From a virus, in IMG/VR virus record IMGVR_UViG_3300045988_167732, positions 32,001 through 96,000 of that record: a stretch of 64,000 bases of DNA. One strand, 5' to 3'. Below are positions 3,684 to 27,734 of the stretch, one piece after another. The notes under the pieces are model-generated. The model saw only the letters and a list, made by a program, of their open reading frames with translations, was not told where the DNA came from and searched no databases. The position numbers and the translations under genes were made by a program. Within the stretch, counting starts at the first letter, position 1. Each line of letters starts with the position of its first letter.

Positions 3684-3688
3684 TTATA

Positions 3689-16704: not shown

Positions 16705-16726
16705 TCAAATTTTATTTAATAAACAC

Positions 16727-16755
16727 TTGACAAAGCGTTTGTTAGATGTTATAAT
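16727..16755 (+). promoter_or_regulatory. sigma70-type promoter
   Basis: TTTAATAAACAC upstream, then TTGACA-N17-TATAAT. Confidence 0.7.
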
Positions 16756-16782
16756 TCAAAATGTAAAAAGGAAGTACGAAAA

Positions 16783-17229
16783 ATGACTGATATTACCCCT
16801 ATCGTAGTTGCTGTAATTGGTTTGTGCTCTTTGATTTTTACAGTTGTCCTTATCCCTTATCTCAAGAAGAAGGGTAAGTTGGACGATGTTAATCATGCTC
16901 TTACTCAAGCAGAACTTATTCGTAAGTATGCTTTAATTGCAGTTAAGGCTGCTGAACAGATGTTCCCTCGGGAAATTGAAAAGCGTTTGCAGGAAGCAAC
17001 AAAGTATTTTAATCAGCAGATGGAAGCTCTTGGTATTACTCTTGATGCAGATGAAGTTCGTAAGGCTATTGAAGCCGCTGTTTATGAGGTGAATCGTGAA
17101 CTTCATGATGAAAAGTTGAAGGAGAGCCAGCTTCAGAATAGCAATCCTGTTCCTTCAAATGACAAGATTGATAACACTGGTAATGTTATCCCTGATGAAG
17201 ATACTGTAACTGAAGAAGCAGTAGGCTAA
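16783..17229 (+). CDS. membrane-anchored protein (possible LL-H-type holin)
   Basis: Single N-terminal TM helix, then a long helical charged region. The family assignment is tentative. Confidence 0.45.
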   Translation: MTDITPIVVAVIGLCSLIFTVVLIPYLKKKGKLDDVNHALTQAELIRKYALIAVKAAEQMFPREIEKRLQEATKYFNQQMEALGITLDADEVRKAIEAAVYEVNRELHDEKLKESQLQNSNPVPSNDKIDNTGNVIPDEDTVTEEAVG

Positions 17230-17365
17230 GATAATTTTCCTTTCTTATCTTAATAAATGTGTTGTTGAGACGCAATTACTCAGCGTCTATAAATAAGTTA
17301 AGTAACGTGAGGTTTGTTGGTAAAATACGAAAGTCCTTTTTGGAATGGAAAAACCAATATTATAT

Positions 17366-17443
17366 GGGAGTATAGTTCAACTGGTTAGAATGCCGCCTTT
17401 ACACGGCGGAGGCTTACAGGTTCGAGTCCTGTTATTCCCACCA
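17366..17443 (+). tRNA. tRNA-Val(TAC), CCA encoded
   Basis: Manual cloverleaf: anticodon loop TTTACAC, T-loop TTCGAGT. Confidence 0.8.
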
Positions 17444-17466
17444 TCAGACTTAAATTTAAACAAAAG

Positions 17467-17589
17467 TTGACACTCACAGCAAATTTATTTTATGTTTTTG
17501 GAATAACGTCGTGTAAGGTTCGACTCCTTATTAACAAATCCCTTGAGCAAGGAATAGTTAACCGTAGATGGCTAGAAAAAAAGTGTTAA
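17467..17589 (+). ncRNA. P1/ACAGCAA structured RNA, copy 1 (contains T-arm-like hairpin)
   Basis: TTGACACT..AGTGTTAA closing stem, CACAGCAA after the 5' arm, internal TAAGG-TTCGACT-CCTTA, A-run before the 3' arm. Confidence 0.65.
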
Positions 17590-17602
17590 GATTGCTCATT
17601 AT

Positions 17603-17688
17603 GCAGATATGGAGTAATGGTATCTCACGGCTCTGCTACAGCCGCTTACCGCAAGGTAATACAGGTTCGAATCCTGTTATCTGCGCCA
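17603..17688 (+). tRNA. tRNA-Ser(GCT), class II, CCA encoded
   Basis: Anticodon loop CTGCTAC, long variable arm, T-loop TTCGAAT. Confidence 0.8.
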
Positions 17689-17809
17689 CAGAATTTATTA
17701 TAGCTGCTCGTAATAAATTCGTAGTATTAGAAGCAGTAAAGGTACGAGTATGGTATCCGGCACGGGAATGGTCGTTAAGGGCGAGATAAAGCTGAGCTCC
17801 CTTTTATAT

Positions 17810-17928
17810 CCTCATTAGTGTAATGGTGCATTCTCGTTAACTGATGTTGAGTAAACACTAAGGTAGCTCCTTAGCGATAACAGCCACATTGGGAGAGGAA
17901 GTTGGTTCGAATCCAATTATGGGGTCCA
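17810..17928 (+). tRNA. tRNA-like gene with a ~45-nt insertion in the anticodon region; isotype unresolved
   Basis: Acceptor CCTCATT/TATGGGG (6 of 7 pairs), T-arm GTTGG-TTCGAAT-CCAAT, T-CCA end, candidate anticodon stem TCTCG/TGGGA flanking a 52-nt segment. Confidence 0.4.
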
Positions 17929-18530
17929 GTAACTACGATACCGTCTTATAAAGATGGAAGTTCGCCTAACAGATGGAGTATCGCTTAATGTTAGGATGTG
18001 TATATGGCGCAACTAAGTTCAGACCGTCCAGAACCTACAACCATATTAGCGGTGACAGCTTGGAGAGACAGCAAATATGCGGAACTGGTGTAGTAATAAA
18101 AATAGCCATGGACAATATTTTTATTATGTTTGGAGTTCGATTCTTCTCTGCCGCTCCAAAAGACAGAATGGTTAGATATTTCTTGATGTCTTTTCAAAAA
18201 ACAAGAAATCCGTAAGATATAGTACGAAACTTATCTTGGAATACAGTTTAGCTGGTTACAATGTATTCGACACTGAACCGCCCTCCAAGTCTGATGGACT
18301 GGTAACAATAGAAAGACCGCTGTTTATTCAATCGGGTGCGTTAAGCCCTTATACAATAACAAGACTGATGATGAAAATGACCAAGATAATTGGGTGCAAG
18401 TTTGCTGAAATATTTCTGTAGACCTCTCCCTAATCGAACCGAGGGCAGATAAGTGGAAAGCTGGTCTGTCAGTAGTCATTAGTTTTTGTTTTGTGTACCT
18501 TTAATAAAATAAAAATAAAAGGGTGTTTTT

Positions 18531-18851
18531 ATGGATTACATTGATAAGCAGTTTGCTAAACGTGGATATAAATTAGTACGTCAAAATGAATATGGCGCTT
18601 ATTATGAAAGAAAAGATAATAAGTTTAATTATACAAGTGAGCTTTGTATTATAGCTAAAGCAAATGGTAAACATCTTATTCAGTGTTATGATGCCCAAGT
18701 AGTTTATGGTCATCCTGAAAAGGATTCTAATAACTATCGTGTTATGAATCAAGTTGATGGAATTGATGCTTCTCTTTCTTTTTGGATTTGGTTAAAGTTT
18801 CATCAGCTTAAACACAAATATAAGTGGGATAAGGTGAAGAAACATGATTAA
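18531..18851 (+). CDS. hypothetical protein
   Basis: ORF after the SD-like AAAGGGTG. Confidence 0.7.
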   Translation: MDYIDKQFAKRGYKLVRQNEYGAYYERKDNKFNYTSELCIIAKANGKHLIQCYDAQVVYGHPEKDSNNYRVMNQVDGIDASLSFWIWLKFHQLKHKYKWDKVKKHD

Positions 18852-19116
18852 GAAATATATTAAGAAGCCAGTTACCATTGAAGCTATTATTTGGGATGGT
18901 GCTAATGAAGCTGAAATTATGGAATTCGTTGGTGCTCATTGCTGTGTTACTACTCAGCATACTATTAATGGTACTGTAACTAATCTTATCATTAATACTC
19001 TTGAGGGAGACCATTATGCTTCTGTTGGCGATTATATCGTTAAGGGAATTAAAGGTGAGTTTTATCCTGTTAAGCCTGATATTATGAAATTGACTTATGA
19101 TGAGGTTACGGAGTAA
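18844..19116 (+). CDS. conserved phage small protein (GDYIV..GE.YP.KPDI..TY motif)
   Basis: Overlapping start. The motif is recalled from other phage proteins of unknown function. Confidence 0.65.
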   Translation: MIKKYIKKPVTIEAIIWDGANEAEIMEFVGAHCCVTTQHTINGTVTNLIINTLEGDHYASVGDYIVKGIKGEFYPVKPDIMKLTYDEVTE

Positions 19117-19553
19117 TGGATACTTCTTTGTTTGAAATTGTAGGTCATTATTATATTTGGACTGGTGAAATTACTAAATTCCGAGTTGATGATATTCTAA
19201 GAGATAAAGAATTTAATTATTGGTATAAGATAGATTCTGAAACTATTGAATATCCTTGGGAAGTTCGCATTTTAGATGCTACTCAAGTTTGGACTAATGC
19301 TGATTGTTATCAAGATAGTACATCGGGTAAATGGATTTATAGATGTATTCCTTATGATGGTTTAATCTTTAGTCTCGAAGCTAATTCTATGACAGAATTA
19401 GTAGACCTTATTAGAGATTTTGTTACTCCTCCTGAAGACAAAGAAGAAGAACTTGTTGCAAGTTCTAATCATAGTTGCTTTACTAATCAGGTTTCGATGT
19501 GCGTAAGAAAAAATTCTGATAAAAATTCTAATAAAGACTTGACAAAGATTTAA
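19116..19553 (+). CDS. hypothetical protein
   Basis: TAATG overlap with the upstream gene. Confidence 0.7.
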   Translation: MDTSLFEIVGHYYIWTGEITKFRVDDILRDKEFNYWYKIDSETIEYPWEVRILDATQVWTNADCYQDSTSGKWIYRCIPYDGLIFSLEANSMTELVDLIRDFVTPPEDKEEELVASSNHSCFTNQVSMCVRKNSDKNSNKDLTKI

Positions 19554-19651
19554 AAGTGTGGTAAGATAAATATATCTTAAGAGAAGAGAAAAATAAAAAC
19601 TTCTCAAAAAGATAAAAAGTAAAAAAGCAAAAAGAAAATTTTAATAAGTGG

Positions 19652-19680
19652 TTGACATCTTAAAGATGATATGCTATAAT
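19652..19680 (+). promoter_or_regulatory. consensus sigma70 promoter driving a P1 element and tRNA-Glu
   Basis: TTGACA-N17-TATAAT, exact consensus. Confidence 0.75.
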
Positions 19681-19716
19681 AAGTGCATAAGTAAAACCTC
19701 CTGATTCATTAAAAAG

Positions 19717-19832
19717 TAGACTCTTACAGCAAATTCCTAAAAAGGTTAACACAATTGTCTGCAAAACAATCATTAGCGAGTTCGATTCTCGTCAGAGGGC
19801 GCTCTGTGGTGAATAATACGCAAAAGAGTCTA
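19717..19832 (+). ncRNA. P1/ACAGCAA structured RNA, copy 2 (T-arm plus closed acceptor-like hairpin)
   Basis: TAGACTCT..AGAGTCTA stem, TACAGCAA, GCGAG-TTCGATT-CTCGT followed by the CAGAG-GGCG-CTCTG hairpin. Confidence 0.7.
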
Positions 19833-19841
19833 GGTTAATAT

Positions 19842-19917
19842 GCTCGGTTAGTCAAGTGGTCTAAGACGGCGGGTTTTCATCCCGTAAACAAGAGTTCGAT
19901 TCTCTTACCGAGTACCA
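19842..19917 (+). tRNA. tRNA-Glu(TTC), CCA encoded
   Basis: Anticodon loop TTTTCAT, T-loop TTCGATT. Confidence 0.8.
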
Positions 19918-20092
19918 TTATTCAAATCAGAAATCCGTTCTTATGATAGTGAGAGTAAGTTTTATCGGATTTAAATGAGGGGAACTTAAATCTATCGAAG
20001 GGTTAAGAAATAATTGTTTGACGAAAAGTTGTTTCTCCTTTCTCTCTATCTGATATGAATAATTTCCTTTCTGTAAGATGATATTTATAAAG

Positions 20093-20224
20093 TAGAGACT
20101 AACAGCAATTTTGAAAATATGTTAAAAAGCCAAGCTCCCATTCTTCGGTTCGAATCCGAACGTCTTCAGTTGAAGTATGTAGCCAAGTGGTTTAAGGCAG
20201 GAGTCCATAACAACAATGTCTCTA
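20093..20224 (+). ncRNA. P1/ACAGCAA structured RNA, copy 3 (circularly permuted tRNA-like fold)
   Basis: TAGAGAC..GTCTCTA stem. Order of parts: GCTCC, T-arm TTCGG-TTCGAAT-CCGAA, short closed acceptor hairpin CTTC-AGTT-GAAG, D-arm-like AGCCAAGTGGTTTAAGGC, then GGAGT pairing back to GCTCC. Confidence 0.7.
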
Positions 20225-20232
20225 GTATTTAT

Positions 20233-20375
20233 GCCCGTGTAGCTCAGTAGGAAGAGCACTTGCCTTGATGGAGTAGTATAAGAAATACATCCTATAAAGG
20301 AAGGTGTGAGTTCAAATCTCATTTTCATCACCGTTAAGCAAGGAGTCGAGAGTTCGAGCCTCTCCACGAGCACCA
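20233..20375 (+). tRNA. tRNA-Lys(TTT) (alternative reading Asn-GTT) interrupted by a 67-nt tRNA-like element
   Basis: Canonical D and T arms, anticodon stem CTTGC/GCAAG, discriminator A plus CCA, one C-A mismatch in the acceptor. Removing 20267-20333 leaves CTTTTAA. Confidence 0.65.
20267..20333 (+). ncRNA. nested tRNA-like element (ACCG end)
   Basis: GATGGAG/TTTCATC acceptor, GTAT-AAGAA-ATAC D-arm, GTGAG-TTCAAAT-CTCAT T-arm. Confidence 0.65.
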
Positions 20376-20411
20376 ATAGCAGAAATGCTAATTTTGTAAT
20401 GACTTCAATAG

Positions 20412-20474
20412 TAGACGCTTGCAGCAATTTTAATTGTACTTATCTGTTAAATAAGAATGCATAAAAAGCGTCTA
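20412..20474 (+). ncRNA. P1/ACAGCAA structured RNA, copy 4 (minimal, 63 nt)
   Basis: TAGACGCT..AGCGTCTA 8-bp stem, TGCAGCAA, A-run before the 3' arm. Confidence 0.6.
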
Positions 20475-20503
20475 GCCCCTTTCTAAAAGGAGAAATTAAA
20501 AAT

Positions 20504-20588
20504 GGGTGAGTAGTGAATCGGCAAACACGGGAGTCTGTAAAACTCTTTCTTAACGGAGTAGAAGGGTCGGCACCTTCCTCACCCACCA
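20504..20588 (+). tRNA. tRNA-Tyr(GTA), class II, CCA encoded
   Basis: Anticodon loop CTGTAAA, long variable arm, unusual T-loop GTCGGCA. Confidence 0.8.
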
Positions 20589-20607
20589 CTTTAAAGGAGA
20601 AAATATT

Positions 20608-20778
20608 ATGGGTTTCATGGGAGAAATTTCAGAAGATATTGGTTGGAATGATTGTATTAATTATCTTCTAAAGAATGTTGATAAATTTCAAGAGACTTTA
20701 GATGGTGGAGCTTATGATTATTTTCCCGACGAAGAAATCAAAGAAGCTTTAAAGAAGCTAATTAGACCAGAAATCTAA
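20608..20778 (+). CDS. hypothetical small protein (56 aa)
   Basis: AAAGGAG SD 7 nt upstream of the ATG, TAA stop. Below the ORF-track size cutoff. Confidence 0.55.
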   Translation: MGFMGEISEDIGWNDCINYLLKNVDKFQETLDGGAYDYFPDEEIKEALKKLIRPEI

Positions 20779-20800
20779 TAAAATTTTTGTTTTAAAACTC

Positions 20801-20829
20801 TTGACAAAATGAAAATTTTGCGCTATAGT
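20801..20829 (+). promoter_or_regulatory. sigma70-type promoter
   Basis: TTGACA-N17-TATAGT. Confidence 0.7.
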
Positions 20830-20907
20830 AAAAATATGATAAAGATACAAATTTATTTGTAAGCTAATTGTTCATTTTTTATTGTTCATAAAAGCATTCC
20901 TTTCAGG

Positions 20908-21036
20908 TAGACTCTAACAGCAACTTTACAATCACAAATGCTATGGGCCTGTTTGTTGGAGGTTCGAATCCTTCACTCCCGACCATCGGGAGTTAGCTCA
21001 ACGGATAGAGCAACAGATTTTGTAAAAATGAGTCTA
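20908..21036 (+). ncRNA. P1/ACAGCAA structured RNA, copy 5: circularly permuted tRNA (3' half-ACCA-T-5' half)
   Basis: TAGACTC..GAGTCTA stem. GGAGG-TTCGAAT-CCTTC T-arm, ACTCCCG-A-CCA, one T, then CGGGAGT-TA-GCTC..GAGC D-arm and a U-rich anticodon-like segment. The acceptor is a perfect 7 bp. Confidence 0.7.
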
Positions 21037-21099
21037 GTCAATAAATTAATAAATTGACGCTCCTATTTTTCTAATAGGCAAATATAAATTCCTTTCAAG

Positions 21100-21215
21100 T
21101 AGACACGTACAGCAAAATTACTTGATGCTTTAATATGGAAAATTAACGATAAGGTTCGACTCCTTAATCTTCTTTTGAAGATGCGTGGTTGCTGGAAATC
21201 AAAAAAACGTGTCTA
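21100..21215 (+). ncRNA. P1/ACAGCAA structured RNA, copy 6 (T-arm plus closed acceptor-like hairpin)
   Basis: TAGACACG..CGTGTCTA stem, CAGCAA pairs with TTGCTG, TAAGG-TTCGACT-CCTTA followed by ATCTTC-TTTT-GAAGAT. Confidence 0.7.
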
Positions 21216-21225
21216 GGTTAAGTAT

Positions 21226-21310
21226 GGCTGAGTGGCGAAATTGGCAGACGCAGTTGCTTCAAGTACAACCCTCGAAAGAGATGTGGGTTCAAGTCCCACC
21301 TCAGCTACCA
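21226..21310 (+). tRNA. tRNA-Leu(CAA), class II, CCA encoded
   Basis: Anticodon loop TTCAAGT, long variable arm, T-loop TTCAAGT. Confidence 0.75.
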
Positions 21311-21852
21311 AAGTTACAGTTCAATTGGCAGATAGCGAATGTAACTTATATTAAACTGCCCGATTCAGCAAGGATGGCTAAAGCCTTGTCGGTGTTCCAT
21401 ATATTTGAACTCATCTTTAGTCCGTTAAGCTAAAGCCCCAACGCCCGTCCGAAGTCTTGGAGTAGAGAACAAGTGAATGGTTCTCGAACGCAAAGTAAGC
21501 TGTCACAAGCTGAAAAAGGCTATAAGCCGCACATGGGTAGAACACAGATATATGGTGAGAGATGTTAGGGTGCGAATGTAACATCAAAAACCTACAGCGA
21601 AAAGCTATACGGAGAAGTCTGTGCCGTGTTTACGGGAATAGGTAGTTGCGTACCTATTCAAACAAAAACTCTGATTACTGCAACTAAATCGGGGTAGGTA
21701 TTGAGGTTATGGGTCATGTAACCTTAAAACACAATAAGCCGAGCATACTGCTTATTGCTCCTAACAGGTGGTGCTGAGGATGAACAACAAAAGCCAAGTT
21801 ATAGAGTTCTTGTAAAAAACTCTGTTGCTATTTGAAAGAATAGCTCAATTAT

Positions 21853-21928
21853 GGGCCTGTAACTCAGTTGGGAGAGTGTCTGCTTTGCACGCAGGAAGTC
21901 GCAAGTTCAAGTCTTGTCAGGTCCACCA
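21853..21928 (+). tRNA. tRNA-Ala(TGC), CCA encoded
   Basis: G3-U70 pair present, anticodon loop TTTGCAC. Confidence 0.85.
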
Positions 21929-22384
21929 TAAGAGTTAGTTGCTCTCTTAGGATAAAAAAAGCACCGTATTAACACGAGTTTACGATAATTAACTGGCCCT
22001 CGTCTGCGGGTAAACAGCAGTTTTAGGCTACTATAAGCCGAAGTTTTAAGGGCAGTTTCTTTAAAAAACATGCATATGGTTTTTCTTGTTATCTCTTTTT
22101 TATCCTAAAAATAGACGTAGCAGCATGACTTGAGGCTATACATCAAGCTCCTGAGACCGAAGAAAAAAAGCTCCCTGTATCGTCAATGGGAAAATAATCT
22201 ATCTGTTCCGTAATAACAGGTGGGAGGGAGTATTTTAGGTCGGCAAGACCACGAGAGGATAGCGCTGTTCTCTCAACCCTTTGCAAAGGTTGCTGATGGG
22301 TTTTCCAAACGGATGTGGAAATTAAATGAATGGAAGGGTATAATTCAGCCCAAAATCAGCTCTAAAATTCAAGAAAATATATTT

Positions 22385-22462
22385 GGGTGTGTAGTTCAGT
22401 CTGGTCAGAACACTTGACCGTTAATCAAGGAGTCGAAGGTTCAAATCCTTCCATACCCGCCA
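22385..22462 (+). tRNA. tRNA-Asn(GTT), CCA encoded
   Basis: Anticodon loop CCGTTAA, discriminator G. Confidence 0.8.
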
Positions 22463-22815
22463 AAAGTGGAGAGTGTAGGTTCGAGTCCTGCCCCGCTCGT
22501 GGGAAACCCTTGCAGGAAGCTGTTAGGTACAGCGCCACTTAGAATTTCTTTCACCTTATTACGCGAAATATGGGATTGAGATGTTGCTTTAGTCGGGTTC
22601 TTTTACAGCAGAAAATAAGAACGCACCTGTTTAATTGGGTTTTTCAGCACAGTAAAAACAAGAAAAACCTCGGTTGTTTAGAAATTTTCTTCTGATATTG
22701 AACGAAAACAAATAGAGAATTCTCTCATTGCAATGCCGAAAGGTAGTAAGTTACGAATTTACCCATGATAAATTACGAACTTGCTACCGAGTAGGGATAA
22801 GAGAGAATTAAACAT

Positions 22816-22891
22816 GCTTTGGTAGCTCAATTGGTAGAGCAGTGGACTGAAAATCCACGTGTAGCTAGTTCGATTCTGGCCTAAAGCACCA
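22816..22891 (+). tRNA. tRNA-Phe(GAA), CCA encoded
   Basis: Anticodon loop CTGAAAA. Confidence 0.85.
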
Positions 22892-22892
22892 T

Positions 22893-22976
22893 TGCTGGCG
22901 AGTGAAACGGATATATAAATCACGCTTGGCTCATACCCAAGTAATAGTGGGTTCGACTCCCATGCTTCAGCAACCA
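22893..22976 (+). tRNA. tRNA(CAT) (Met or Ile2 type) with extended acceptor stem and large D-loop
   Basis: Anticodon arm CTTGG-CTCATAC-CCAAG, T-arm GTGGG-TTCGACT-CCCAT. Two extra nucleotides between the T-stem and acceptor imply an 8-9 bp acceptor. Confidence 0.55.
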
Positions 22977-23000
22977 AAAAACAAAAGGAAGTAAATTCTA

Positions 23001-23306
23001 ATGACTGATTTTAAGACTTACATTTATTAGACAGCAAGTAATAAAAAGTTTGTTTATAGATGTCCTCATTGTAATAAAGGGATAATGCAAGTAGTAGAAA
23101 CAAAAATTGCTAAAAATGAAACTAATATTTTATCTTGGAATTATACTTGCCCAGTTTGTAAGAAAACGATTGTCTCTATTGAAAAAGATGGTTGTTCTTG
23201 CTTTAAGAGTGTGTTCCCTCCAATGACTCAAATTAGTGATAAAGAATTTGCTGATATTAAAAAGAATGTAGGAGAGAAAGATATTTATCTGTTCTCTGAA
23301 ACATAA
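23001..23306 (+). CDS. zinc-ribbon protein (1 in-frame TAG)
   Basis: ATG 23001 follows AAAGGAAG. In frame with track ORF 23085 across a single TAG. CPHC..CPVC. Confidence 0.7.
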
Positions 23307-23313
23307 AATAAAT

Positions 23314-23408
23314 GCTAGCGTACAGAAGTGGTCATAACTGCCATCACTTGAAATGATGTGTGACGGCTTGTATCCGTCTCGTGAGTTCGAATCTTACCGC
23401 TAGTGCCA
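23314..23408 (+). tRNA. tRNA-Ser(TGA), class II, CCA encoded
   Basis: Anticodon loop CTTGAAA, long variable arm. Confidence 0.8.
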
Positions 23409-23427
23409 TGGAAAAAGGAGATTAAAA

Positions 23428-23943
23428 ATGAGCAATAATAATTCAATCGAAATCGAACGTAAGTTTTTAATCTCTGGTTTTCCTAAAGTCGATTTTGATG
23501 AAGTCGGAATTGTTAAAACTATCTATATTAATATCAAATATAATTCTGATGGAAAAATTTTACAGGAAATTCGTATAAGACGTTGGTTTGAAAGTGGCAA
23601 AGGTTATCGTCCAGATGCTCTTACTTTTAAATCTGGTGGTACTTTAATTCGTACCGAAATTGAAACAAATCTTACAGATAATTCTTTGTTTGACTGTTTT
23701 AATGAACTTGGTTATAATCCTATTGTAAAAGATTATAGAGGTCTTTACAATAATGGTTGTTTAATTGAATTTAATCTTGTAGATGGCGGAACTGATACTG
23801 CTTTCTACTATGCCGAAGTTGAATTCAATTCTGAGGAAGAAGCTAATAGTTTTGTTTGGCCTTTTCCTGAAGTATTTATTGAGGAAGTTACTAATAAGCT
23901 TGAATATAAGATGGCAAATTATTGGAAACGTACTCGTGGATAA
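23428..23943 (+). CDS. CYTH-domain protein (triphosphate tunnel metalloenzyme)
   Basis: N-terminal IEIERKF carries the ExExK signature. Confidence 0.75.
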   Translation: MSNNNSIEIERKFLISGFPKVDFDEVGIVKTIYINIKYNSDGKILQEIRIRRWFESGKGYRPDALTFKSGGTLIRTEIETNLTDNSLFDCFNELGYNPIVKDYRGLYNNGCLIEFNLVDGGTDTAFYYAEVEFNSEEEANSFVWPFPEVFIEEVTNKLEYKMANYWKRTRG

Positions 23944-23966
23944 GGACTTTTATTAGTCCTTTATTT

Positions 23967-24098
23967 GCTTTCGTGGCTCAATCGGTAGAGCGCCTGATTT
24001 GATAGAGTGACAGAATGTATTGTCTTAGTTTGCAAGTTCAAGTCTTGCCTTTATCACCAGTAATCAGGATGTTGCAGGTTCGAGTCCTGTCGGAAGCT
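23967..24098 (+). tRNA. tRNA-Thr(TGT) interrupted by a 59-nt tRNA-like element; host CCA not encoded
   Basis: Acceptor GCTTTCG/CGGAAGC, anticodon stem CCTGA/TCAGG. Removing 24001-24059 leaves TTTGTAA. Confidence 0.75.
24001..24059 (+). ncRNA. nested tRNA-like element (ACCA end)
   Basis: GATAGAG/CTTTATC acceptor, GACA/TGTC D-stem, 7-nt linker, GCAAG-TTCAAGT-CTTGC T-arm, A-CCA. Confidence 0.7.
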
Positions 24099-24161
24099 GG
24101 GAACAAGGTCAAGCCTTCACGTTGGCGTTCCTGTTTAAACTAATTGACTAAAAGAGGTTTT

Positions 24162-25037
24162 ATGAAATATTGTCTCAATTGTGGTAAAGAATTAAATAAA
24201 CAAGTAAAAAAATTTTGTGATAATAAATGTTTTGTTGAATATTAGTATCACAAATATATTAAAAACTGGAAGCTTGGTAAAATTACAGGGGTCGTTGGTT
24301 TTGGGGTTAGTAAATATATAAGAAGATATTTATTAGAAAAGTATAATTATTCTTGCCAAGAATGTGGTTGGAATAAAATTAATCCTTATACTAATAAAAC
24401 ACCTTTGGAAATTCACCATAAAGATGGAAATTATTTAAATTGTTCAGAAGAGAATTTAGCTTTGCTTTGCCCCAACTGTCATTCTTTAACAGATACTTAT
24501 AAATCTTTGAATAGACCAGAAATGAGAAGAGATAGAACAAGATACAATCAAAGACCCAATCCTTTTTTTGATGAATTAAATTGTGATAAGAAAGAAAAGA
24601 AAAAATATTTTTGTCCGGTTTGTGGCAATGAAATAACCCGCAAGGCAAAATTATGTCTTAATTGCAGAAAAAAGGAAAATTTGAAAAACTCTAATAAACC
24701 CTCTAAAGAAATTTTAATGGAAGAATCTAAAAATTTTGTCTCTTATGTAAAATTAGGGGAAAAATATGGGGTATCTGACAATACTATTAGGAAGTGGTTC
24801 TCAAGTTACGATTTGCCTCTTCCTAAAAGGGAAAAAGCAGAATATAAACCAAAAGTCTACCATCCAGAATATTAGGTTTATACAACAAGAAAAACAGCTA
24901 CAGGATGGGAAAAATACTTAAAATTGGGTCAGCATAAAATTGCTCGATATGTTCCCAACCATACTGTTTCTCAAATAGAAGATTACATAAAAATTTTTTA
25001 TGATGAAGCTGTGAAAAAAGGAATTATTAATAAATAA
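24162..25037 (+). CDS. HNH homing endonuclease (2 in-frame TAG)
   Basis: N-terminal CLNCG..C..C ribbon, HHKDGN..N..NL..LCPNCH HNH core. The frame continues through TAG at 24873 to TAA 25035. Confidence 0.8.
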
Positions 25038-25068
25038 TAACAAACAAAAAAGAAATTTTAAAAAGTAC

Positions 25069-25097
25069 TTGACAAGATGAAAAGTATATGTTATACT
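25069..25097 (+). promoter_or_regulatory. sigma70-type promoter
   Basis: TTGACA-N17-TATACT. Confidence 0.7.
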
Positions 25098-25129
25098 TAA
25101 GATGTGGTTGAGAGATACAACCTAAAAAT

Positions 25130-25205
25130 GCGGCAGTGTGGAAGCGCTATCCAGCCTACGCACCGAACGTGGGAGTCGCCAGTTGGAATCTGGTCTGCCG
25201 CTCCA
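25130..25205 (+). tRNA. tRNA-Arg(CCG)-like, non-canonical (A33, 6-bp anticodon stem)
   Basis: Acceptor GCGGCAG/CTGCCGC, D-arm TGGA/TCCA, CCTACG-CACCGAA-CGTGGG, T-loop TTGGAAT, T-CCA. Confidence 0.5.
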
Positions 25206-25341
25206 ATTCCTTAGTAGTTTAAAAGACGATAAACAAATTAAAATACCCTTCAGTCGGAAAGCCTCTAATGAGTATAGAATGGCACTCAAGTAGGGAGTTC
25301 TGGATGGGCGAATCGGAACCACCAGCTAAGGAAAAATATAT

Positions 25342-25416
25342 AGGGGTATAGCCAAATGGTGAAGGCAGCGGTCTTTGACGCCGCCATTAAAGGTTCGAAT
25401 CCTTTTATCCCTGCCA
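25342..25416 (+). tRNA. tRNA-Gln(TTG), CCA encoded
   Basis: Anticodon loop CTTTGAC, T-loop TTCGAAT. Confidence 0.8.
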
Positions 25417-25445
25417 TAAGCAACAATTCAAATTATCGTTTAACG

Positions 25446-25564
25446 TAGACGCTTACAGCAAACAATAATAAAATCAAATTCTATAAAAAAGATTTATGGT
25501 ATTGTTCCTTGCTAATTAGTTTATGATGCTTTCATGATTCTCCTTTGTTAGTATTATGCGTCTA
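25446..25564 (+). ncRNA. P1/ACAGCAA structured RNA, copy 7
   Basis: TAGACGC..GCGTCTA stem, TTACAGCAA. AGCAAACAATA can pair with TATTGTTCCTTGCT. Confidence 0.6.
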
Positions 25565-25572
25565 GTTTATAA

Positions 25573-25639
25573 GTGCCGTACCAAGGTTGGAGCTACTCGA
25601 CGGAGAACTTAAGAAGGGGTTCGAATCCCCCACGGTGCA
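25573..25639 (+). ncRNA. tRNA-like minihelix RNA (acceptor plus T-arm, no clear anticodon arm)
   Basis: GTGCCGT/ACGGTGC acceptor, T-loop TTCGAAT. The central 35 nt does not fold as D and anticodon arms. Confidence 0.45.
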
Positions 25640-25696
25640 AGATTGAATTGTTTGGAGTACTACAAACAAGATGGTAAGTTATTGATGATTTAAAAG

Positions 25697-25759
25697 TAAA
25701 CCCTTACAGCAATTTAATTATTTAATTTTTGCTTGAAAAAAGATTAAGGATAGGGTTTA
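25697..25759 (+). ncRNA. P1/ACAGCAA structured RNA, copy 8 (minimal)
   Basis: TAAACCCT..AGGGTTTA stem, TACAGCAA. Confidence 0.6.
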
Positions 25760-25779
25760 GTCCTGTAATGTTGAAAAAG

Positions 25780-25865
25780 TAGACACATACAGCAATTAAA
25801 ATAAAAATACTGGGAAATATATTTAATTGGAATAAATACTTTTTTTAGATTTTTTATTGTGTCTA
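25780..25865 (+). ncRNA. P1/ACAGCAA structured RNA, copy 9
   Basis: TAGACACA..TGTGTCTA stem, TACAGCAA. Confidence 0.6.
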
Positions 25866-25876
25866 GGATTTTATAT

Positions 25877-26010
25877 GCTGATATAGCTCAATAGGTTAGA
25901 GCTTCCGACCACGAAATAGCTTAAGAAAAGCAAAGGATGTAAGTTCAAATCTTACTTTCGTGACCATTATAATCGGAGGGTTGAGTGTTCGAGCCACTCT
26001 ATCAGCACCA
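25877..26010 (+). tRNA. tRNA-Ile(TAT) interrupted by a 57-nt tRNA-like element
   Basis: Canonical arms, anticodon stem TCCGA/TCGGA, A-CCA end. Removing 25910-25966 leaves CTTATAA. Confidence 0.75.
25910..25966 (+). ncRNA. nested tRNA-like element (ACCA end, no anticodon arm)
   Basis: CACGAAA/TTTCGTG acceptor, GCTT-AAGAA-AAGC D-arm, 7-nt linker, GTAAG-TTCAAAT-CTTAC T-arm, A-CCA. Confidence 0.75.
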
Positions 26011-26107
26011 TTTAAATACAGGTAGCATTGGAGTAATTAACCAATGAGAAAATAATGCCCAAACATTAAGCTGTATTTTTTAAAAATTCTTTTGGGAGGA
26101 TTAAAAA

Positions 26108-26905
26108 ATGATTGAGTTAACTGAAGAACAGAAAAAATTAGAATTGTCAAATGATAATTGGAAAATTGTTCCAAATTGGTCAAGATATGAAGTAAATTAG
26201 TATCGGATTCTACGAAACAAAAAAACCAAACATATTTTAACATCAAAAGATAATAAGAGAGGATATTTAATTTATCTTGTTCTTAGAGATGATGATAACA
26301 GAATTCACATTTTGTCAAAACATAAAGCTGTAGCTTTGGCATGGGTTCCCAACCCCTAGAATTTACCTATTATAAATCACAAAGACGAAGACAAATTAAA
26401 TTGCTTTTATTAGAATTTAGAATGGTGTACAAGCAGTTATAATAACAGTTACAACGGGACAGGTAAAAAGAGAAGTGAAAAATTTAAAAAGACTTTTTTT
26501 GTTTATGATTCTGAGCGGAATTTAATAGAAAAAAGAAAAGGCATAAATGAATTTTGCGCAGAAAATAATTTATCTTCTCGGTGTGCTAGTTCTATTTTAA
26601 AAAAGAATAGTGAAGAAGAAAAATGTTATAGTATAAAAGGATTTTATCTTTTTTACGAACAAATAACAAAAGAAGATTTTTTATAGAGAAAGCAAAAAGT
26701 TTTTAATATAGGGAATTTAGGCAAAAAGAAATTTTCTAAAAAAGTTTATCAATATGATTTACAAAACAATCTTCTTCAAATTTATTCTAGTGTACATGAA
26801 GTTAAAGAGAAAAATGATTTAGCTACAACGTCAGTAATAAGTGCTTGTTGTAGAAATAAAATAAAAACTGCTTATGGATATAAATGGAGTTATGTTCCAT
26901 TATAA
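26108..26905 (+). CDS. HNH/NUMOD-type homing endonuclease (4 in-frame TAG)
   Basis: W..VPNWSRYEV, GY..YL, VHR-like KHKAVALAWVPNP, NHKDEDKLN..NLEW, C-terminal AYGYKWSY. All lie in one frame broken only by TAG. Confidence 0.8.
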
Positions 26906-26919
26906 ACAAAAAAATAAAG

Positions 26920-26987
26920 TAGACTCTTACAGCAATTACTTAGAGACTTGTGATTTGGGATTACATATGTTTTGAAAAATGAGTCTA
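26920..26987 (+). ncRNA. P1/ACAGCAA structured RNA, copy 10 (minimal)
   Basis: TAGACTC..GAGTCTA stem, TTACAGCAA, A-run before the 3' arm. Confidence 0.6.
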
Positions 26988-26997
26988 GCTTTATTAA

Positions 26998-27078
26998 GCG
27001 CCTGTAGTCTAATTGGATAAAACAGCACTCTTCTAAAGTGTATTTTTTATACGAGTTCGAATCTCGTCAGGCGTACCA
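26998..27078 (+). tRNA. tRNA-Arg(TCT), CCA encoded
   Basis: Anticodon loop CTTCTAA, T-loop TTCGAAT. Confidence 0.8.
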
Positions 27079-27153
27079 TGAGGAGTAGCATAGCGGCAAA
27101 TGCACTAGTCTCTAAAACTAGGTAAACAGGGTCGGCACCTGTCTCCTCTGCCA
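27079..27153 (+). tRNA. suppressor tRNA, anticodon CTA (reads UAG)
   Basis: Anticodon arm CTAGT-CTCTAAA-ACTAG, T-arm ACAGG-GTCGGCA-CCTGT, G-CCA end. D-loop, anticodon arm and T-loop closely resemble the phage tRNA-Tyr, but the long variable arm is missing. Positions 1:72 form a T-T mismatch. Confidence 0.75.
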
Positions 27154-27159
27154 GATATT

Positions 27160-27196
27160 GAGGGAATTAAATAAAAAATCTTAATTCCCTCTTTTA
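27160..27196 (+). terminator. intrinsic terminator closing the tRNA array
   Basis: GAGGGAATTAA..TTAATTCCCTC 11-bp stem followed by TTTT. Confidence 0.8.
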
Positions 27197-27278
27197 TATA
27201 AAAACAAAAACAAAGCAAACAAAAAACTAAAGTAAAACAAACAAAGTAAAACAAAGAAATTAAAGGAGACAAAAAATT

Positions 27279-27734
27279 ATGTGTGACAACTGCAAGAATG
27301 ACATTTCCCGACCGTCTAACTCTTCCATTGCTTATGGTGTTTATGAGAGTGGTGGCGTAGTCAAGGCTGAGGTAACTGATACTGCATTTGATGCAATGCA
27401 TGTTATTACTCGTCTTTGTGAAAAGGCTGATATGAAGACTATTTCTCTTGAAGGTATTTGGGAGAACACTCTTCTTGAAAACAGCTATCGTGGTAAGGCT
27501 AAGGTAAACCATGCTGATGGTGATAAGTTCGTTGAGGACATTGGTAAGGAGTTTGCTCGTGGCAAGGCTCTTGAAAAGTATCATCGAGCATTTGACCGTA
27601 AGATTCTTGCAATGCTTCTTGATGCACGAGTTTTGGTTGCAACCATTGAACACTATTGTGCTAAGAAGAGCATCAACACTGAAAAGATTCCTTCGATTGA
27701 AGCGATTTCTAAGAAGCGCTTTGGTTGTAAGTAA
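27279..27734 (+). CDS. hypothetical protein
   Basis: AAAGGAG SD; AAG/CTT-type codon usage. Confidence 0.75.
   Translation: MCDNCKNDISRPSNSSIAYGVYESGGVVKAEVTDTAFDAMHVITRLCEKADMKTISLEGIWENTLLENSYRGKAKVNHADGDKFVEDIGKEFARGKALEKYHRAFDRKILAMLLDARVLVATIEHYCAKKSINTEKIPSIEAISKKRFGCK

What the first reader, a model, noticed from the sequence alone, without database searches (positions are those of the whole stretch)
17467..26987. Family of 10 structured RNAs in the tRNA array: covarying stem TAGAC-NNN / NNN-GTCTA with an invariant ACAGCAA
Copies lie at 17467, 19717, 20093, 20412, 20908, 21100, 25446, 25697, 25780 and 26920, with an 11th at 39340. All begin (A/G)G-T(A/T)(G/A)AC-NNN-(T/C/A)(A/G)CAGCAA and end NNN-GT(C/T)TA(G/A). 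The NNN positions covary to keep a 7-8 bp helix: ACT/AGT, TCT/AGA, GCT/AGC, ACG/CGT, CCC/GGG, ACA/TGT. That argues for selection on RNA structure. An A-run often precedes the 3' arm. Interiors range from 45 to 115 nt. Five copies contain a T-arm (GGTTCGANTCC type) stacked on a loop-closed acceptor-like hairpin. That is a tRNA-like domain whose ends exit through the anticodon-stem side, the same topology as bacterial YrlA-type Y RNAs. Most copies sit 7-12 nt upstream of a tRNA gene. The motif does not match any RNA family I can name.
Basis: partly seen in the sequence, partly recalled or inferred. Interest (0 to 1): 0.88.

Follow-up and report, generated by a model that had tools for sequence, protein, structure and literature searches.

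The report
Phage Y-like RNAs with Ro partner
Eleven copies of a small structured RNA module in this phage's tRNA gene cluster look like the RNA partners of the phage's own Ro60-like ring protein, which would make them an uncatalogued, widespread phage counterpart of the Ro-Y RNA particles of animals and bacteria.

Summary
Eleven + strand copies share a 7-9 bp closing helix (TAGAC-N-C-N / N-G-N-GTCTA), an unpaired A-CAGCAA after the 5' arm, an A-rich 3' side and an unpaired G after the 3' arm.

The same signature (CAGCAA invariant, helix covarying) lies next to homologues of window ORF 39423-41144 in dozens of uncultured phages. It also occurs in Felixounavirus (HY02, Bas63), Mycobacterium phage Samty, Listeria Pecentumvirus, Enterococcus EF1, Campylobacter PC14 and Bacillus Thrax4.

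That ORF (Pfam DUF2828+DUF7788) models as a Ro60/TROVE ring plus vWA domain. The link is reciprocal. Loci found by RNA pattern alone encode the protein. A covariance model trained only on other phages ranks the five short window copies as its top five hits.

Interiors are empty or carry tRNA parts: YrlA-like T arm, closed acceptor and D arm, or anticodon-loop look-alikes.

Best reading: Y-RNA-like ligands of a Ro60-like protein, co-transcribed with tRNAs. Copy 11 is a leader operator of the protein's own gene. Binding and function are inferred, not shown.

They are not Rfam YrlA members (41 bits against a cut-off of 69; no GNCGAA motif). I rate this a new variant of a known kind.

The parts
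17467..17589 (+). Copy 1. Closing helix TTGACACT/AGTGTTAA, then CA-CAGCAA. The interior has a T arm and a closed hairpin. It lies 23 nt after tRNA-Val and 13 nt before tRNA-Ser(GCU).
19717..19832 (+). Copy 2. Helix TAGACTCT(T)/(A)AGAGTCTA. The interior has an anticodon-arm look-alike (AUUGU-CUGCAAA-ACAAU), a T arm and a GGCG-closed hairpin. It lies 9 nt before tRNA-Glu and about 37 nt after a 12/12 sigma-70-type promoter (19652-19680).
20093..20224 (+). Copy 3. Helix TAGAGAC/GTCTCTA. The interior has YrlA-like topology: an inner stem, a T arm, a closed acceptor-like hairpin and a D arm (GCC-AAGUGGUUUAA-GGC). It lies 8 nt before the interrupted tRNA gene 20233-20375.
20412..20474 (+). Copy 4 (short). 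Helix TAGACGCTT/AAGCGTCTA, with G-CAGCAA. The interior hairpin CUUAU-CUGUUAA-AUAAG looks like an Asn anticodon loop. It is followed by a CCTTT...AAAGGAG leader and tRNA-Tyr.
   Evidence: model R1 hit 42.8 bits, E 7.6e-8
20908..21036 (+). Copy 5. Helix TAGACTC/GAGTCTA. The interior has a T arm, a 7-bp acceptor-like stem closed by a loop that contains ACCA, and a D arm. This is the best YrlA look-alike.
   Evidence: Rfam YrlA 20931-21029, 41.4 bits, cut-off 69, E 1.6e-6; fold z = -3.4
21100..21215 (+). Copy 6. Helix TAGACACGT/ACGTGTCTA. The interior has a T arm and a UUUU-closed 6-bp hairpin. It lies 10 nt before tRNA-Leu(CAA).
25446..25564 (+). Copy 7. Helix TAGACGC/GCGTCTA. The AT-rich interior has no tRNA-like part. 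It lies 29 nt after tRNA-Gln.
25697..25759 (+). Copy 8 (short). Helix TAAACCCT/AGGGTTTA. It lies 20 nt before copy 9.
   Evidence: R1 36.9 bits, E 2e-6
25780..25865 (+). Copy 9. Helix TAGACACA/TGTGTCTA. In relatives the innermost pair is T:A or T:G instead of A:T. It lies 11 nt before the interrupted tRNA gene 25877-26010.
   Evidence: R1 31 bits, E 5.5e-5
26920..26987 (+). Copy 10 (short). Helix TAGACTC/GAGTCTA. The interior hairpin UGUGA-UUUGGGA-UUACA looks like a Pro anticodon loop. It lies 10 nt before tRNA-Arg(UCU).
   Evidence: R1 36.8 bits, E 2.2e-6
39340..39399 (+). Copy 11 (short). Helix TAGACTCT/AGAGTCTA. It sits in the leader of the Ro60-like gene, about 12 nt after the predicted transcription start and 10 nt before the Shine-Dalgarno sequence.
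   Evidence: R1 39.1 bits, E 6e-7
39293..39321 (+). Promoter-like TTGACA-17 nt-TATAGT in front of copy 11 and the Ro60-like gene.
   Evidence: read from the sequence; it has the same form as the array promoters listed
39401..39415 (+). Possible hairpin UCCUUU-AGA-AAAGGA that would sequester the Shine-Dalgarno sequence. Its 5' arm region (GUCCUUU, 39400-39406) can instead pair with AAAGGAC (39381-39387) inside copy 11. That pairing is incompatible with the closing helix.
   Evidence: read from the sequence; inference only, not tested in other lineages
39423..41144 (+). Ro60-like protein, 573 aa: an N-terminal helical-repeat region (DUF2828) plus a vWA domain (DUF7788) with an invariant DxSxS motif.
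   Evidence: Pfam; PHROG 850 'RNA-binding protein'; AlphaFold2 model with pLDDT 67; Foldseek top 11 hits all Ro60/TROVE, E 5e-8 to 3e-5; invariant D348, S350, S352

Best explanation
Each element is an RNA module with a fixed platform and a variable cargo.

The platform has four parts:
- a 7-9 bp closing helix;
- an unpaired A-CAGCAA on the 5' strand, directly after the helix;
- an A-rich 3' strand;
- an unpaired G directly after the 3' arm.

I propose that the platform is the recognition site of the phage's own Ro60-like ring protein (ORF 39423-41144). The modules would then be that protein's Y-RNA-like partners.

The cargo varies. It can be nothing. It can be a YrlA-type tRNA-like domain (T arm, loop-closed acceptor stem, with or without a D arm). 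It can be a hairpin with the shape and loop sequence of a tRNA anticodon arm.

Ten modules are co-transcribed with tRNAs from sigma-70-type promoters. They would be freed by the tRNA-processing enzymes. RNase P cutting at the 5' end of the tRNA 8-13 nt downstream would leave a short single-stranded 3' tail.

The eleventh module lies between the promoter and the ribosome-binding site of the protein's own gene. It most likely acts as an autoregulatory operator that mimics the free RNAs.

The resulting particle would act like bacterial Rsr-YrlA. It would be a tRNA-mimicking scaffold or gate for RNA surveillance or repair during infection, or a counter to host defences.

Shown here: the RNA family, its helix covariation, its strand specificity, its reciprocal genomic linkage to the protein, and the protein's Ro60-like fold. 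Inferred: direct binding, processing, autoregulation and the downstream function.
For: 1. The family is real.
- There are 11 copies against 1.9 expected by chance.
- In 83 distinct copies from many phages, all 9 helix positions show double changes.
- 88% of cells are paired, and 188 cells carry a change on both sides against 60 +/- 5.5 in shuffles.
- The covariation score is 0.69, against 0.23 in shuffles and 0.09-0.19 when the partner is slid by 1-3 columns.
- CAGCAA is invariant by construction, since the copies were found by that word. The A before it and the G after the helix are conserved at 90% or more.

2. The elements are strand-specific. In 610 kb there are 230 on the gene strand, 39 on the other strand and 28 in shuffled sequence.

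3. The elements are linked to the protein.
- In 65 IMG/VR loci and 3 ENA loci whose DUF2828 homologues are 44-57% identical, one to four tandem elements sit just upstream of the gene in all but four.
- Three of those four exceptions have elements elsewhere in the locus, and the fourth has one weak candidate.
- Lineages with no tRNA within 3-10 kb of the gene (L134, L136, L154-L160, L162) still keep a CAGCAA hairpin in the gene's leader.

4. The same arrangement occurs in cultured phages of three bacterial phyla: HY02, Samty, EF1, LP-066, PC14, Thrax4 and Bas63. It also occurs in contigs binned with metagenome-assembled genomes.

5. The link is reciprocal.
- Distant loci found by the RNA pattern alone (L010/L109, L031, L096) each encode the protein.
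- Among 102 other pattern-hit loci (854 kb), model R1 hits 4 and the protein is encoded in 3. All 3 are among those 4.

6. Cross-validation. R1 was trained without any window sequence. It ranks the five short window copies as its top five hits, with E from 8e-8 to 5.5e-5.

7. The protein has a Ro60-like fold and an invariant DxSxS motif. Homologues are annotated 'Ro-like RNA binding protein' in GenBank records.

8. The tRNA-like cargo matches Rfam YrlA at sub-threshold level: window copy 5 at 41.4 bits and Samty at 37.9 bits. tRNA-type hairpins occur in 73 of 222 elements against 6 expected.

9. RNA-repair genes lie nearby in relatives: RtcB 1.3 kb downstream in LP-066 and an RNA ligase upstream in CBB. 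This parallels the bacterial rsr-yrlA-rtcBA neighbourhood.

10. Published work on homologues fits.
- Bas63 gp130 is described as Ro60-like and counters the ppl defence (PMC11482910). I confirmed that gp130 is a DUF2828 homologue with four elements in the tRNA array downstream of it.
- Listeria CKA15_055 matches Rsr by HHpred and lies downstream of highly transcribed non-coding regions (PMC12282133).
Against: - No binding, expression or processing data exist for this phage.
- The protein has no Pfam TROVE hit and no sequence-level match to solved Ro60 structures. The model is of moderate quality (pLDDT 67; TM-score 0.3-0.55).
- The RNAs lack the GNCGAA motif that marks known Ro60-binding Y RNAs.
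- Ten of the 11 copies lie 12-22 kb from the gene. This exceeds the 4-kb rule used to define YrlA.
- Bas63 gp130 alone, expressed from a plasmid or from T7, restored growth on the ppl strain (PMC11482910). At least that activity may not need the phage's RNAs.
- No element was found within 3 kb of the gene in the T4-like Aeromonas and Vibrio phages or in CBB.
- The covariation set was chosen by requiring a stem, which inflates the percentage paired.
Confidence: 0.68

Rival explanations
1. The modules are cis-acting operators or processing marks, not free Y-like RNAs. The Ro60-like protein, or another factor, binds them within precursor transcripts. It would control translation of downstream ORFs or set cleavage and trimming boundaries in front of tRNAs, and the module would not accumulate as a separate particle.
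For: - Modules sit directly 5' of functional units: 8-29 nt before tRNAs and 1-35 nt before the Shine-Dalgarno sequence of the Ro-like gene in many lineages.
- In relative L058 the orthologue of copy 4 directly precedes a Shine-Dalgarno sequence and ATG.
- The unpaired G at the 3' foot of the helix is conserved at 90% or more. That would suit a cleavage or contact site.
Against: - In Felixounavirus and Samty the modules lie downstream of the gene.
- Tandem runs of 2-4 modules are hard to explain as operators.
- tRNA-like cargo conserved with its own stem covariation points to a function for the released RNA.
- This reading overlaps with the main one for copy 11.
Confidence: 0.15
2. The modules are signals for host RNases or stabilising leader hairpins of tRNA precursors. 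They would be unrelated to the DUF2828 protein, and the co-occurrence would only reflect shared residence in tRNA regions.
For: - Most copies lie inside tRNA arrays.
Against: - The motif follows the gene even where no tRNA lies within 3-10 kb. In the window, copy 11 is 12 kb from the tRNA array.
- In the blind set, all three loci that encode the protein are hit by the RNA model.
- The window tRNAs at 13.4-14.9 kb and at 21.8-25.4 kb have no module in front of them.
Confidence: 0.07
3. The modules are a new class of small self-cleaving ribozyme that trims tRNA precursors. This would resemble the HDV-like theta ribozymes or hammerheads reported next to phage tRNAs.
For: - Invariant unpaired nucleotides sit next to a covarying helix, and the peripheral domain varies.
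- The elements are adjacent to tRNAs.
Against: - No Rfam ribozyme family matches, even at E up to 10.
- The only invariant block is one 6-7 nt strand, with no second conserved strand.
- Minimal members are 33-nt hairpins with a 19-nt loop (L134, L154).
- The tight linkage to a protein gene is not expected of a ribozyme.
Confidence: 0.04
4. The repeats act at the DNA level, as miniature inverted-repeat mobile elements, homing-site repeats or protein-binding palindromes. Alternatively they are decayed or circularly permuted tRNA genes.
For: - The ends are inverted repeats and the elements occur in many copies.
- HNH endonuclease genes and a TnpB gene are present in the window.
- Some interiors hold tRNA halves in permuted order, as in copy 5.
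Against: - Arm sequences differ between copies with compensating changes. Transposition would give identical arms.
- The elements are strictly on one strand.
- Orthologous copies keep their positions across relatives.
- G:U pairs are tolerated, which suits RNA and not DNA.
- Most copies have no tRNA parts, and no copy can rebuild a complete anticodon arm from its ends.
Confidence: 0.03

Closest known systems
Bacterial and phage YrlA-type Y RNAs with Rsr/Ro60 (Rfam RF02553; Chen et al. 2014, PMC4201824)
   Same: - The 5' and 3' ends pair to form a stem.
- A short conserved single-stranded motif sits on the 5' strand next to that stem.
- An internal tRNA-like domain has a T arm, a D arm and a loop-closed acceptor stem (copies 3 and 5).
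- The RNA is encoded on the same strand as, and often next to, a Ro60-fold protein gene.
- RNA-repair genes lie nearby in relatives.
   Different: - The conserved motif is A-CAGCAA, not GNCGAAN0-1G.
- The best Rfam score is 41 bits against a cut-off of 69.
- The protein partner belongs to Pfam DUF2828/DUF7788, not TROVE.
- There are up to 11 copies per genome, spread through tRNA arrays 12-22 kb from the gene.
- Over half of the copies have no tRNA-like domain, or carry an anticodon-arm look-alike instead.
Thermus phage phiLo Ro60 with Yrl1 and Yrl2 (PMC12135203; PDB 9KOP, 9L5Y)
   Same: - It is a phage-encoded Ro60-fold protein with Y-like RNAs encoded just upstream of its gene.
- 9KOP and 9L5Y are among the top Foldseek hits for the window protein.
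   Different: - The phiLo RNAs were picked by a CGAA motif in a large internal bulge.
- They are two copies and are not embedded in a tRNA array.
- Binding and a ternary complex with host PNPase were shown in vitro for phiLo. Nothing of the kind has been shown here.
Autoregulatory mRNA leaders that mimic a protein's main RNA ligand (ribosomal-protein operators, T4 RegA and gp32, MS2 coat protein operator)
   Same: Copy 11 carries the same platform as the dispersed copies. It lies between the promoter and the Shine-Dalgarno sequence of the protein's own gene. In other lineages the equivalent copy ends 1-35 nt before the Shine-Dalgarno sequence.
   Different: This is purely inferred. Repression has not been tested. 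In some phages the modules lie downstream of the gene instead.
   Same: They are small structured RNAs interspersed with tRNA genes of gut phages, including phages that reassign stop codons.
   Different: - Those ribozymes have a defined catalytic core, and theta ribozymes lie 3' of tRNAs.
- The elements here lie 5' of tRNAs and match no ribozyme model.
- The elements here track a protein gene.

Membership tests
YrlA / Y RNA-like (Rfam RF02553) | Scores at or above the curated gathering threshold (69 bits) of the family's covariance model | tested here: not met
   No hit at the gathering threshold. At the E-value threshold only copy 5 hits, at 41.4 bits. The Samty element scores 37.9 bits.
YrlA / Y RNA-like (Rfam RF02553) | GNCGAAN0-1G motif near the 5' end, the proposed Ro60/Rsr contact (PMC4201824) | tested here: not met
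   The regular expression G.CGAA.?G finds nothing in any of the 11 copies. CGAA occurs only inside the T loops of copies 3 and 5. A-CAGCAA occupies the equivalent position.
YrlA / Y RNA-like (Rfam RF02553) | The 5' and 3' ends pair into a stem that encloses the rest of the RNA | tested here: met
   The closing helix appears in all 11 folds and covaries across 83 copies.
YrlA / Y RNA-like (Rfam RF02553) | Internal tRNA-like domain with a T arm, a D arm and a loop-closed acceptor stem | tested here: inconclusive
   Complete in copies 3 and 5. Copies 1, 2 and 6 have only the T arm and closed hairpin. Copies 4 and 7-11 have none.
YrlA / Y RNA-like (Rfam RF02553) | Encoded within about 4 kb of a Ro60 orthologue and on the same strand | tested here: inconclusive
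   Copy 11 ends 23 nt before the gene. The other ten are on the same strand but 12-22 kb upstream. In other phages the modules lie within 0-3 kb.
YrlA / Y RNA-like (Rfam RF02553) | Physically bound by the Ro60 orthologue | not testable with these tools
   This needs immunoprecipitation or gel-shift experiments.
Ro60 / TROVE proteins (for ORF 39423-41144) | Sequence-level match to the TROVE domain or to solved Ro60 structures | tested here: not met
   Pfam returns only DUF2828, DUF7788 and a sub-threshold VWA_2 match (19.9 bits against a cut-off of 27). A profile search of PDB sequences finds no Ro60.
Ro60 / TROVE proteins (for ORF 39423-41144) | Fold: a helical-repeat ring followed by a vWA domain with a metal-ion site | tested here: met
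   The top 11 Foldseek hits are Ro60/TROVE chains aligned over 536-616 columns, with E from 5e-8 to 3e-5. The model is of moderate quality. DxSxS is invariant in 25 homologues.
Known self-cleaving ribozyme classes (hammerhead, HDV-like, twister, twister-sister, pistol, hatchet, hairpin) | Match to the class's covariance model or catalytic core | tested here: not met
   No such family appears among Rfam matches at E up to 5-10 over 16500-27300 and 19700-21230.
Circularly permuted or split tRNA genes | The two halves together rebuild a full cloverleaf, including an anticodon arm, with processing signals at the junction | tested here: not met
   In copies 3 and 5 the ends leave through the position of the anticodon stem, and no anticodon loop can be formed from them. 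Six copies have no tRNA halves at all.
Miniature inverted-repeat transposable elements | Near-identical terminal inverted repeats among copies, target-site duplications, and either orientation | tested here: not met
   The arms differ between copies with compensating changes. All copies lie on one strand. No flanking duplications are visible in the flanks shown.

The most novel reading that the evidence does not exclude
The platform plus Ro60-like ring may be a display system for isolated tRNA parts.

Many short modules carry 5-bp hairpins whose 7-nt loops copy real anticodon loops: CUUUUAA (Lys), CUGUUAA (Asn), CUGCAAA (Cys), UUUGGGA (Pro) and CUGCUAA (Ser). Their stems covary between lineages. 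Other modules carry T-arm and acceptor minihelices.

The particle could act as a decoy, a sensor or a repair scaffold against host nucleases that cut tRNA anticodon loops. That would explain three things: why the system lives in phage tRNA arrays, why RNA ligases lie nearby, and why the Felixounavirus homologue gp130 scores as an anti-defence gene.
Probability: 0.2. Interest if true: 0.9.

Novelty: new variant of a known kind. Interest (0 to 1): 0.78.

Why it matters
Ro60-Y RNA particles are known from animals and from about 5% of bacteria. Their purpose in microbes is still unclear, and so is the reason for the tRNA mimicry.

This finding would add a second, phage-borne branch of that system. 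It has its own protein family, found in 695 GenBank phage records including Felix O1-like, P100/A511-like, mycobacterial and Campylobacter phages. It also has its own RNA signature, which no curated RNA family captures.

Two recent papers guessed that Y RNAs must exist near these genes but did not find them (PMC11482910, PMC12282133). The modules described here are concrete candidates.

They occur in genetically tractable phages, one of which already has a phenotype (Bas63 gp130 against the ppl defence). That makes the function of a Ro-type particle directly testable.

The finding also flags probable mis-annotated short ORFs in deposited genomes. It offers a simple search rule for the family: a helix, then A-CAGCAA, then the return strand of the helix, then G.

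Tried and rejected
- **Known RNA family.** The Rfam gathering scan of the window found only tRNAs. The E-value scans added a sub-threshold YrlA hit and chance-level matches (snoR09, freshwater-2, Dicty class I).
- **Ribozyme, permuted tRNA, mobile element, promoter.** Each was considered and set aside for the reasons given under rival explanations. The sigma-70 scan flags copies 1, 7 and 9 only because TAGACA/TTGACA resembles a -35 box. Other lineages use arms that do not resemble one.
- **CAGCAA pairing with a partner.** UUGCUG occurs in copy 6, and partial complements occur in copies 7 and 8. It is absent from the orthologue of copy 6 in L113 and from most copies.
- **Sequence search of the protein against PDB.** It found nothing.
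- **Literature search for 'DUF2828'.** It returned only incidental mentions.
- **Supplement tables of Chen et al. 2014.** They are not held, so I could not check which 22 phages were listed there.
- **Megablast of the region against GenBank phages.** No match.
- **Relaxed one-mismatch motif scan of the window.** It was too noisy in this AT-rich genome to add copies.
- **Model R1 on long copies.** R1 scores only the 5' halves of the six long copies (E 0.04-1.3), so it is a detector for short forms only.
- **CKA15 transcription.** I first thought the most highly transcribed region of Listeria phage CKA15 was the module array. Mapping shows it is a ROOL-like RNA about 0.7 kb further upstream. Whether the module array is one of the two other highly transcribed regions could not be settled from the text.

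Full report
**1. The observation**

The window is an AT-rich phage segment with at least 16 tRNA genes on the + strand between 13.4 and 27.2 kb. The pattern TRRACNNNNRCAGCAA, with one mismatch allowed, occurs 12 times, all on the + strand, against 1.9 expected.

Each copy has the complement of its 8-nt 5' arm 60-132 nt downstream, with 0-1 mismatch. All eleven minimum-free-energy folds contain that closing helix, and ACAGCAA stays unpaired in seven of them. Five copies hold a GGTTCGANTCC-type T arm beside a loop-closed hairpin. Seven lie 8-13 nt before a tRNA gene, including two interrupted tRNA genes that ARAGORN misses, and copy 4 lies 29 nt before one.

**2. Known RNA families**

Rfam at gathering thresholds finds only tRNAs. 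With E-value thresholds the one informative extra is a full-length YrlA match over the interior of copy 5 (41.4 bits, cut-off 69, E 1.6e-6). It aligns a T arm, a closed acceptor stem and a D arm. No ribozyme family appears.

The hallmark YrlA motif GNCGAAN0-1G (PMC4201824) is absent from all copies. These RNAs resemble YrlA in layout but fail two defining tests, so I do not file them as members.

**3. The neighbouring protein**

Copy 11 ends 23 nt before ORF 39423-41144. Pfam calls this ORF DUF2828 plus DUF7788/vWA. PHROGs calls it 'RNA-binding protein'.

An AlphaFold2 model built from 25 homologues (pLDDT 67, pTM 0.58) has Ro60/TROVE structures as its top eleven Foldseek hits in the PDB. These include Xenopus Ro, Deinococcus Rsr, human Ro60 and Thermus phage phiLo Ro60. 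They align over essentially the full length with E from 5e-8 to 3e-5. A DxSxS metal-site motif is invariant in the vWA part.

There is no sequence-level match to Ro60. GenBank annotators already label some homologues 'Ro-like RNA binding protein'. The Ro-like nature of the protein is therefore supported at fold level and is not new in itself.

**4. The RNA motif follows the protein**

I fetched loci that encode homologues 44-57% identical to the window protein. I then looked only for CAGCAA preceded by a helix strand whose partner lies downstream.

In nearly every lineage the gene is directly preceded by one to four tandem elements. Their helices differ in sequence: AAGACAC/GTGTCTT, AAGGCAC/GTGCCTT, GAGACGC/GCGTCTC, TATGCCT/AGGCATA and CGACCG/CGGTCG. 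They share the same N(0-3)-CAGCAA junction.

The signal is strand-specific. There are 230 elements on the gene strand, 39 on the opposite strand and 28 in shuffled sequence, in 610 kb.

Lineages with no tRNA within 3-10 kb still keep a CAGCAA hairpin in the gene's leader. So the motif tracks the gene and not merely tRNA arrays. Three of the four apparent exceptions have elements elsewhere in the locus, and the fourth (L138) has one weak candidate (E 0.019) about 8 kb upstream.

**5. Breadth**

tblastn finds the protein in 695 GenBank phage records. Elements lie next to the gene in seven cultured phages:
- Escherichia phage HY02 and Bas63 (Felixounavirus);
- Mycobacterium phage Samty;
- Enterococcus phage EF1;
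- Listeria phage LP-066 and its relative CKA15;
- Campylobacter phage PC14;
- Bacillus phage Thrax4.

In Thrax4 and the Felixounaviruses the elements are interspersed among tRNA genes, exactly as in the window. They also occur in contigs binned with genomes of many gut taxa. A Staphylococcus phage has a variant with a longer junction. None was seen within 3 kb of the gene in the T4-like Aeromonas and Vibrio phages or in CBB.

**6. Reciprocity and cross-validation**

The first database scan used only the RNA pattern AGTAGACNNNNACAGCAA. Its distant multi-copy hits (L010/L109, L031, L096) each turned out to encode a DUF2828 homologue of 32-41% identity beside the elements.

I then built covariance model R1 from 38 short elements of other phages, with no window sequence in the training set. 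In the 64-kb window, searched on both strands with filters off, its five best hits are exactly the five short copies, with E from 7.6e-8 to 5.5e-5. The long copies score weakly through their 5' halves.

Among 102 remaining pattern-hit loci (854 kb), R1 hits four and the protein is encoded in three. All three are among those four, and the hits lie just upstream of the gene. By my own hand calculation the chance of that overlap is about 2e-5. The fourth locus sits at a contig end, so its gene may lie outside the stretch held.

**7. Architecture**

When the copies are anchored on CAGCAA, 83 distinct copies align without gaps. The consensus reads: nnA-AGACAC-nn-A-CAGCAA-nUUU ... AAAA-n-GUGUCUU-G.

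Seven helix positions pair in at least 95% of copies, an eighth pairs in about 65%, and every position shows double changes. There are 188 cells with changes on both sides against 60 +/- 5.5 in shuffles. The covariation score is 0.69 against 0.23 in shuffles and 0.09-0.19 for slid registers.

One caveat applies. Copies were selected by requiring a stem, so the percentage paired is inflated. The slid-register control, the conserved arm composition and the independent model test are not affected in the same way. Within the window's own clade, orthologous copies show compensated changes, for example copy 9: A:U, then U:A, then U:G.

**8. Cargo**

Interiors fall into three kinds:
- nearly empty (a 19-nt loop in L134 and L154);
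- a tRNA 'top half', with or without a D arm, as in YrlA;
- a 5-bp hairpin with a 7-nt loop of tRNA type.

Such hairpins occur in 73 of 222 elements, against 6 expected from shuffled interiors. About a third of those 73 are T arms. The rest copy real anticodon loops: CUUUUAA, CUGUUAA, CUGCAAA, UUUGGGA and CUGCUAA. The same loop sits on different stems in different lineages, for example UAAGA/UCUUA, AUAGA/UCUAU, UUAGA/UCUAA and ACAAA/UUUGU for CUUUUAA.

Window copies 2, 4 and 10 belong to this class. This is the basis of the decoy idea in the novel case. It is suggestive only.

**9. How it most likely works**

*Shown:* an RNA family under selection for a closing helix and an unpaired A-CAGCAA, genomically coupled across phyla to a Ro60-fold protein.

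*Inferred:*
- The protein binds the platform.
- The array copies are transcribed from the strong sigma-70-type promoters at 19652, 20801 and 25069.
- They are released by tRNA processing.
- Copy 11 lies between a TTGACA-17-TATAGT promoter and the Shine-Dalgarno sequence and serves as an autoregulatory mimic. In other lineages the gene-proximal copy ends 1-35 nt before the Shine-Dalgarno sequence.

*Possible switch in the window:* GUCCUUU (39400-39406) could pair either with the Shine-Dalgarno region or with AAAGGAC inside copy 11. This is speculative.

*Functional context:*
- RtcB or RNA ligase genes lie near the gene in LP-066 and CBB.
- A Thg1-like gene lies in the window.
- The published anti-defence phenotype of Bas63 gp130 (PMC11482910) applies to a protein I confirmed to be a homologue with four modules in its downstream tRNA array.

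That paper also shows that gp130 works when expressed alone, which cautions against assuming the RNAs are needed for every activity.

**10. Novelty**

Phage Ro60 homologues with Y-like RNAs are known: mycobacteriophages in PMC4201824 and phiLo in PMC12135203. Two papers speculated that undiscovered Y RNAs accompany DUF2828-type proteins in Bas63 and CKA15.

I found no description of the CAGCAA family in the held literature, and Rfam 15 has no model for it. I therefore rate it a new variant of a known kind. It has a distinct protein family, a distinct RNA signature, modular tRNA-part cargo, and a high copy number dispersed in tRNA arrays.

Noticed in passing
window 20233-20375, 25877-26010, 23966-24098: Three tRNA genes appear to be interrupted in the anticodon loop by a 55-65 nt insert. 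The insert itself folds like a small tRNA, with a 7-bp acceptor-like stem and a T arm. Rfam's tRNA model hits the inserts (20267-20330 at 41 bits; 25910-25963 at 43 bits; 23967-24056 at 27 bits), and ARAGORN calls none of the outer genes. If the inserts are removed by tRNA-processing enzymes, this would be an unusual kind of tRNA intron.
   Followed up: partly
window 17690-18500, 21311-21852, 21929-22384, 22463-22815: Four long non-coding stretches between tRNA genes are richer in G+C than their surroundings. None has an Rfam match at E up to 5. They are candidates for large structured RNAs.
   Followed up: no
L222 1423-1974 (Listeria phage LP-066); corresponds to CKA15 record 26,236-26,727: A ROOL-like RNA (87 bits, cut-off 99) lies 1 kb upstream of the Ro-like gene. 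By coordinate mapping it coincides with the region reported as by far the most transcribed of phage CKA15. That region was annotated there as three tiny ORFs (CKA15_059-061) and was not recognised as ROOL (PMC12282133).
   Followed up: partly
window 24162-25037 and 26108-26905; tRNA at 27079-27153: Two HNH-endonuclease-like ORFs inside the tRNA region contain two and four in-frame stop codons, which read as TAG in the sequence. A tRNA with anticodon CUA lies close by. The phage therefore probably reads TAG as a sense codon, at least in some genes.
   Followed up: partly
window 20483-20507 and 20591-20614, flanking tRNA-Tyr 20504-20588: The Shine-Dalgarno-plus-ATG segment (AAAGGAGAAA..ATGGGT) is present on both sides of tRNA-Tyr, as if the tRNA gene had been inserted into the leader of ORF 20609-20779. 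In relative L058 the orthologue of copy 4 directly precedes a Shine-Dalgarno sequence and ATG.
   Followed up: no
window 25575-25640: A tRNA-like sequence with an acceptor stem (two G:U pairs) and a good T arm, but no normal D arm, lies 10 nt after copy 7. Neither ARAGORN nor Rfam calls it.
   Followed up: no
L220 4535-4729 (Samty gp55); L230 20749-21023 (bas63_0137, bas63_0138): Short hypothetical-protein ORFs annotated in GenBank records overlap the CAGCAA modules. In Bas63 they are on the opposite strand. They are probably not genes.
   Followed up: no
window 11010-11834, 8391-9650, 3680-6388, 62183-63502: Other genes in the window are a Thg1-like 3'-5' nucleotidyltransferase (a tRNA 5'-end repair type), a PARP catalytic domain with a WGR domain, a UvrD-like helicase with a sub-threshold intein-domain match (25.9 bits against a cut-off of 35.8), and a TnpB/Cas12f-like protein.
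   Followed up: no
L231 (USDL01000001.1, 123,382 bp): A near-identical relative of this phage (protein 93% identical) is deposited as a contig of an 'uncultured Clostridium sp.' metagenome-assembled genome. This gives a weak hint of the host. The consensus TTGACA/TATAAT promoters and AAAGGAG ribosome-binding sites agree with a Firmicutes host.
   Followed up: no
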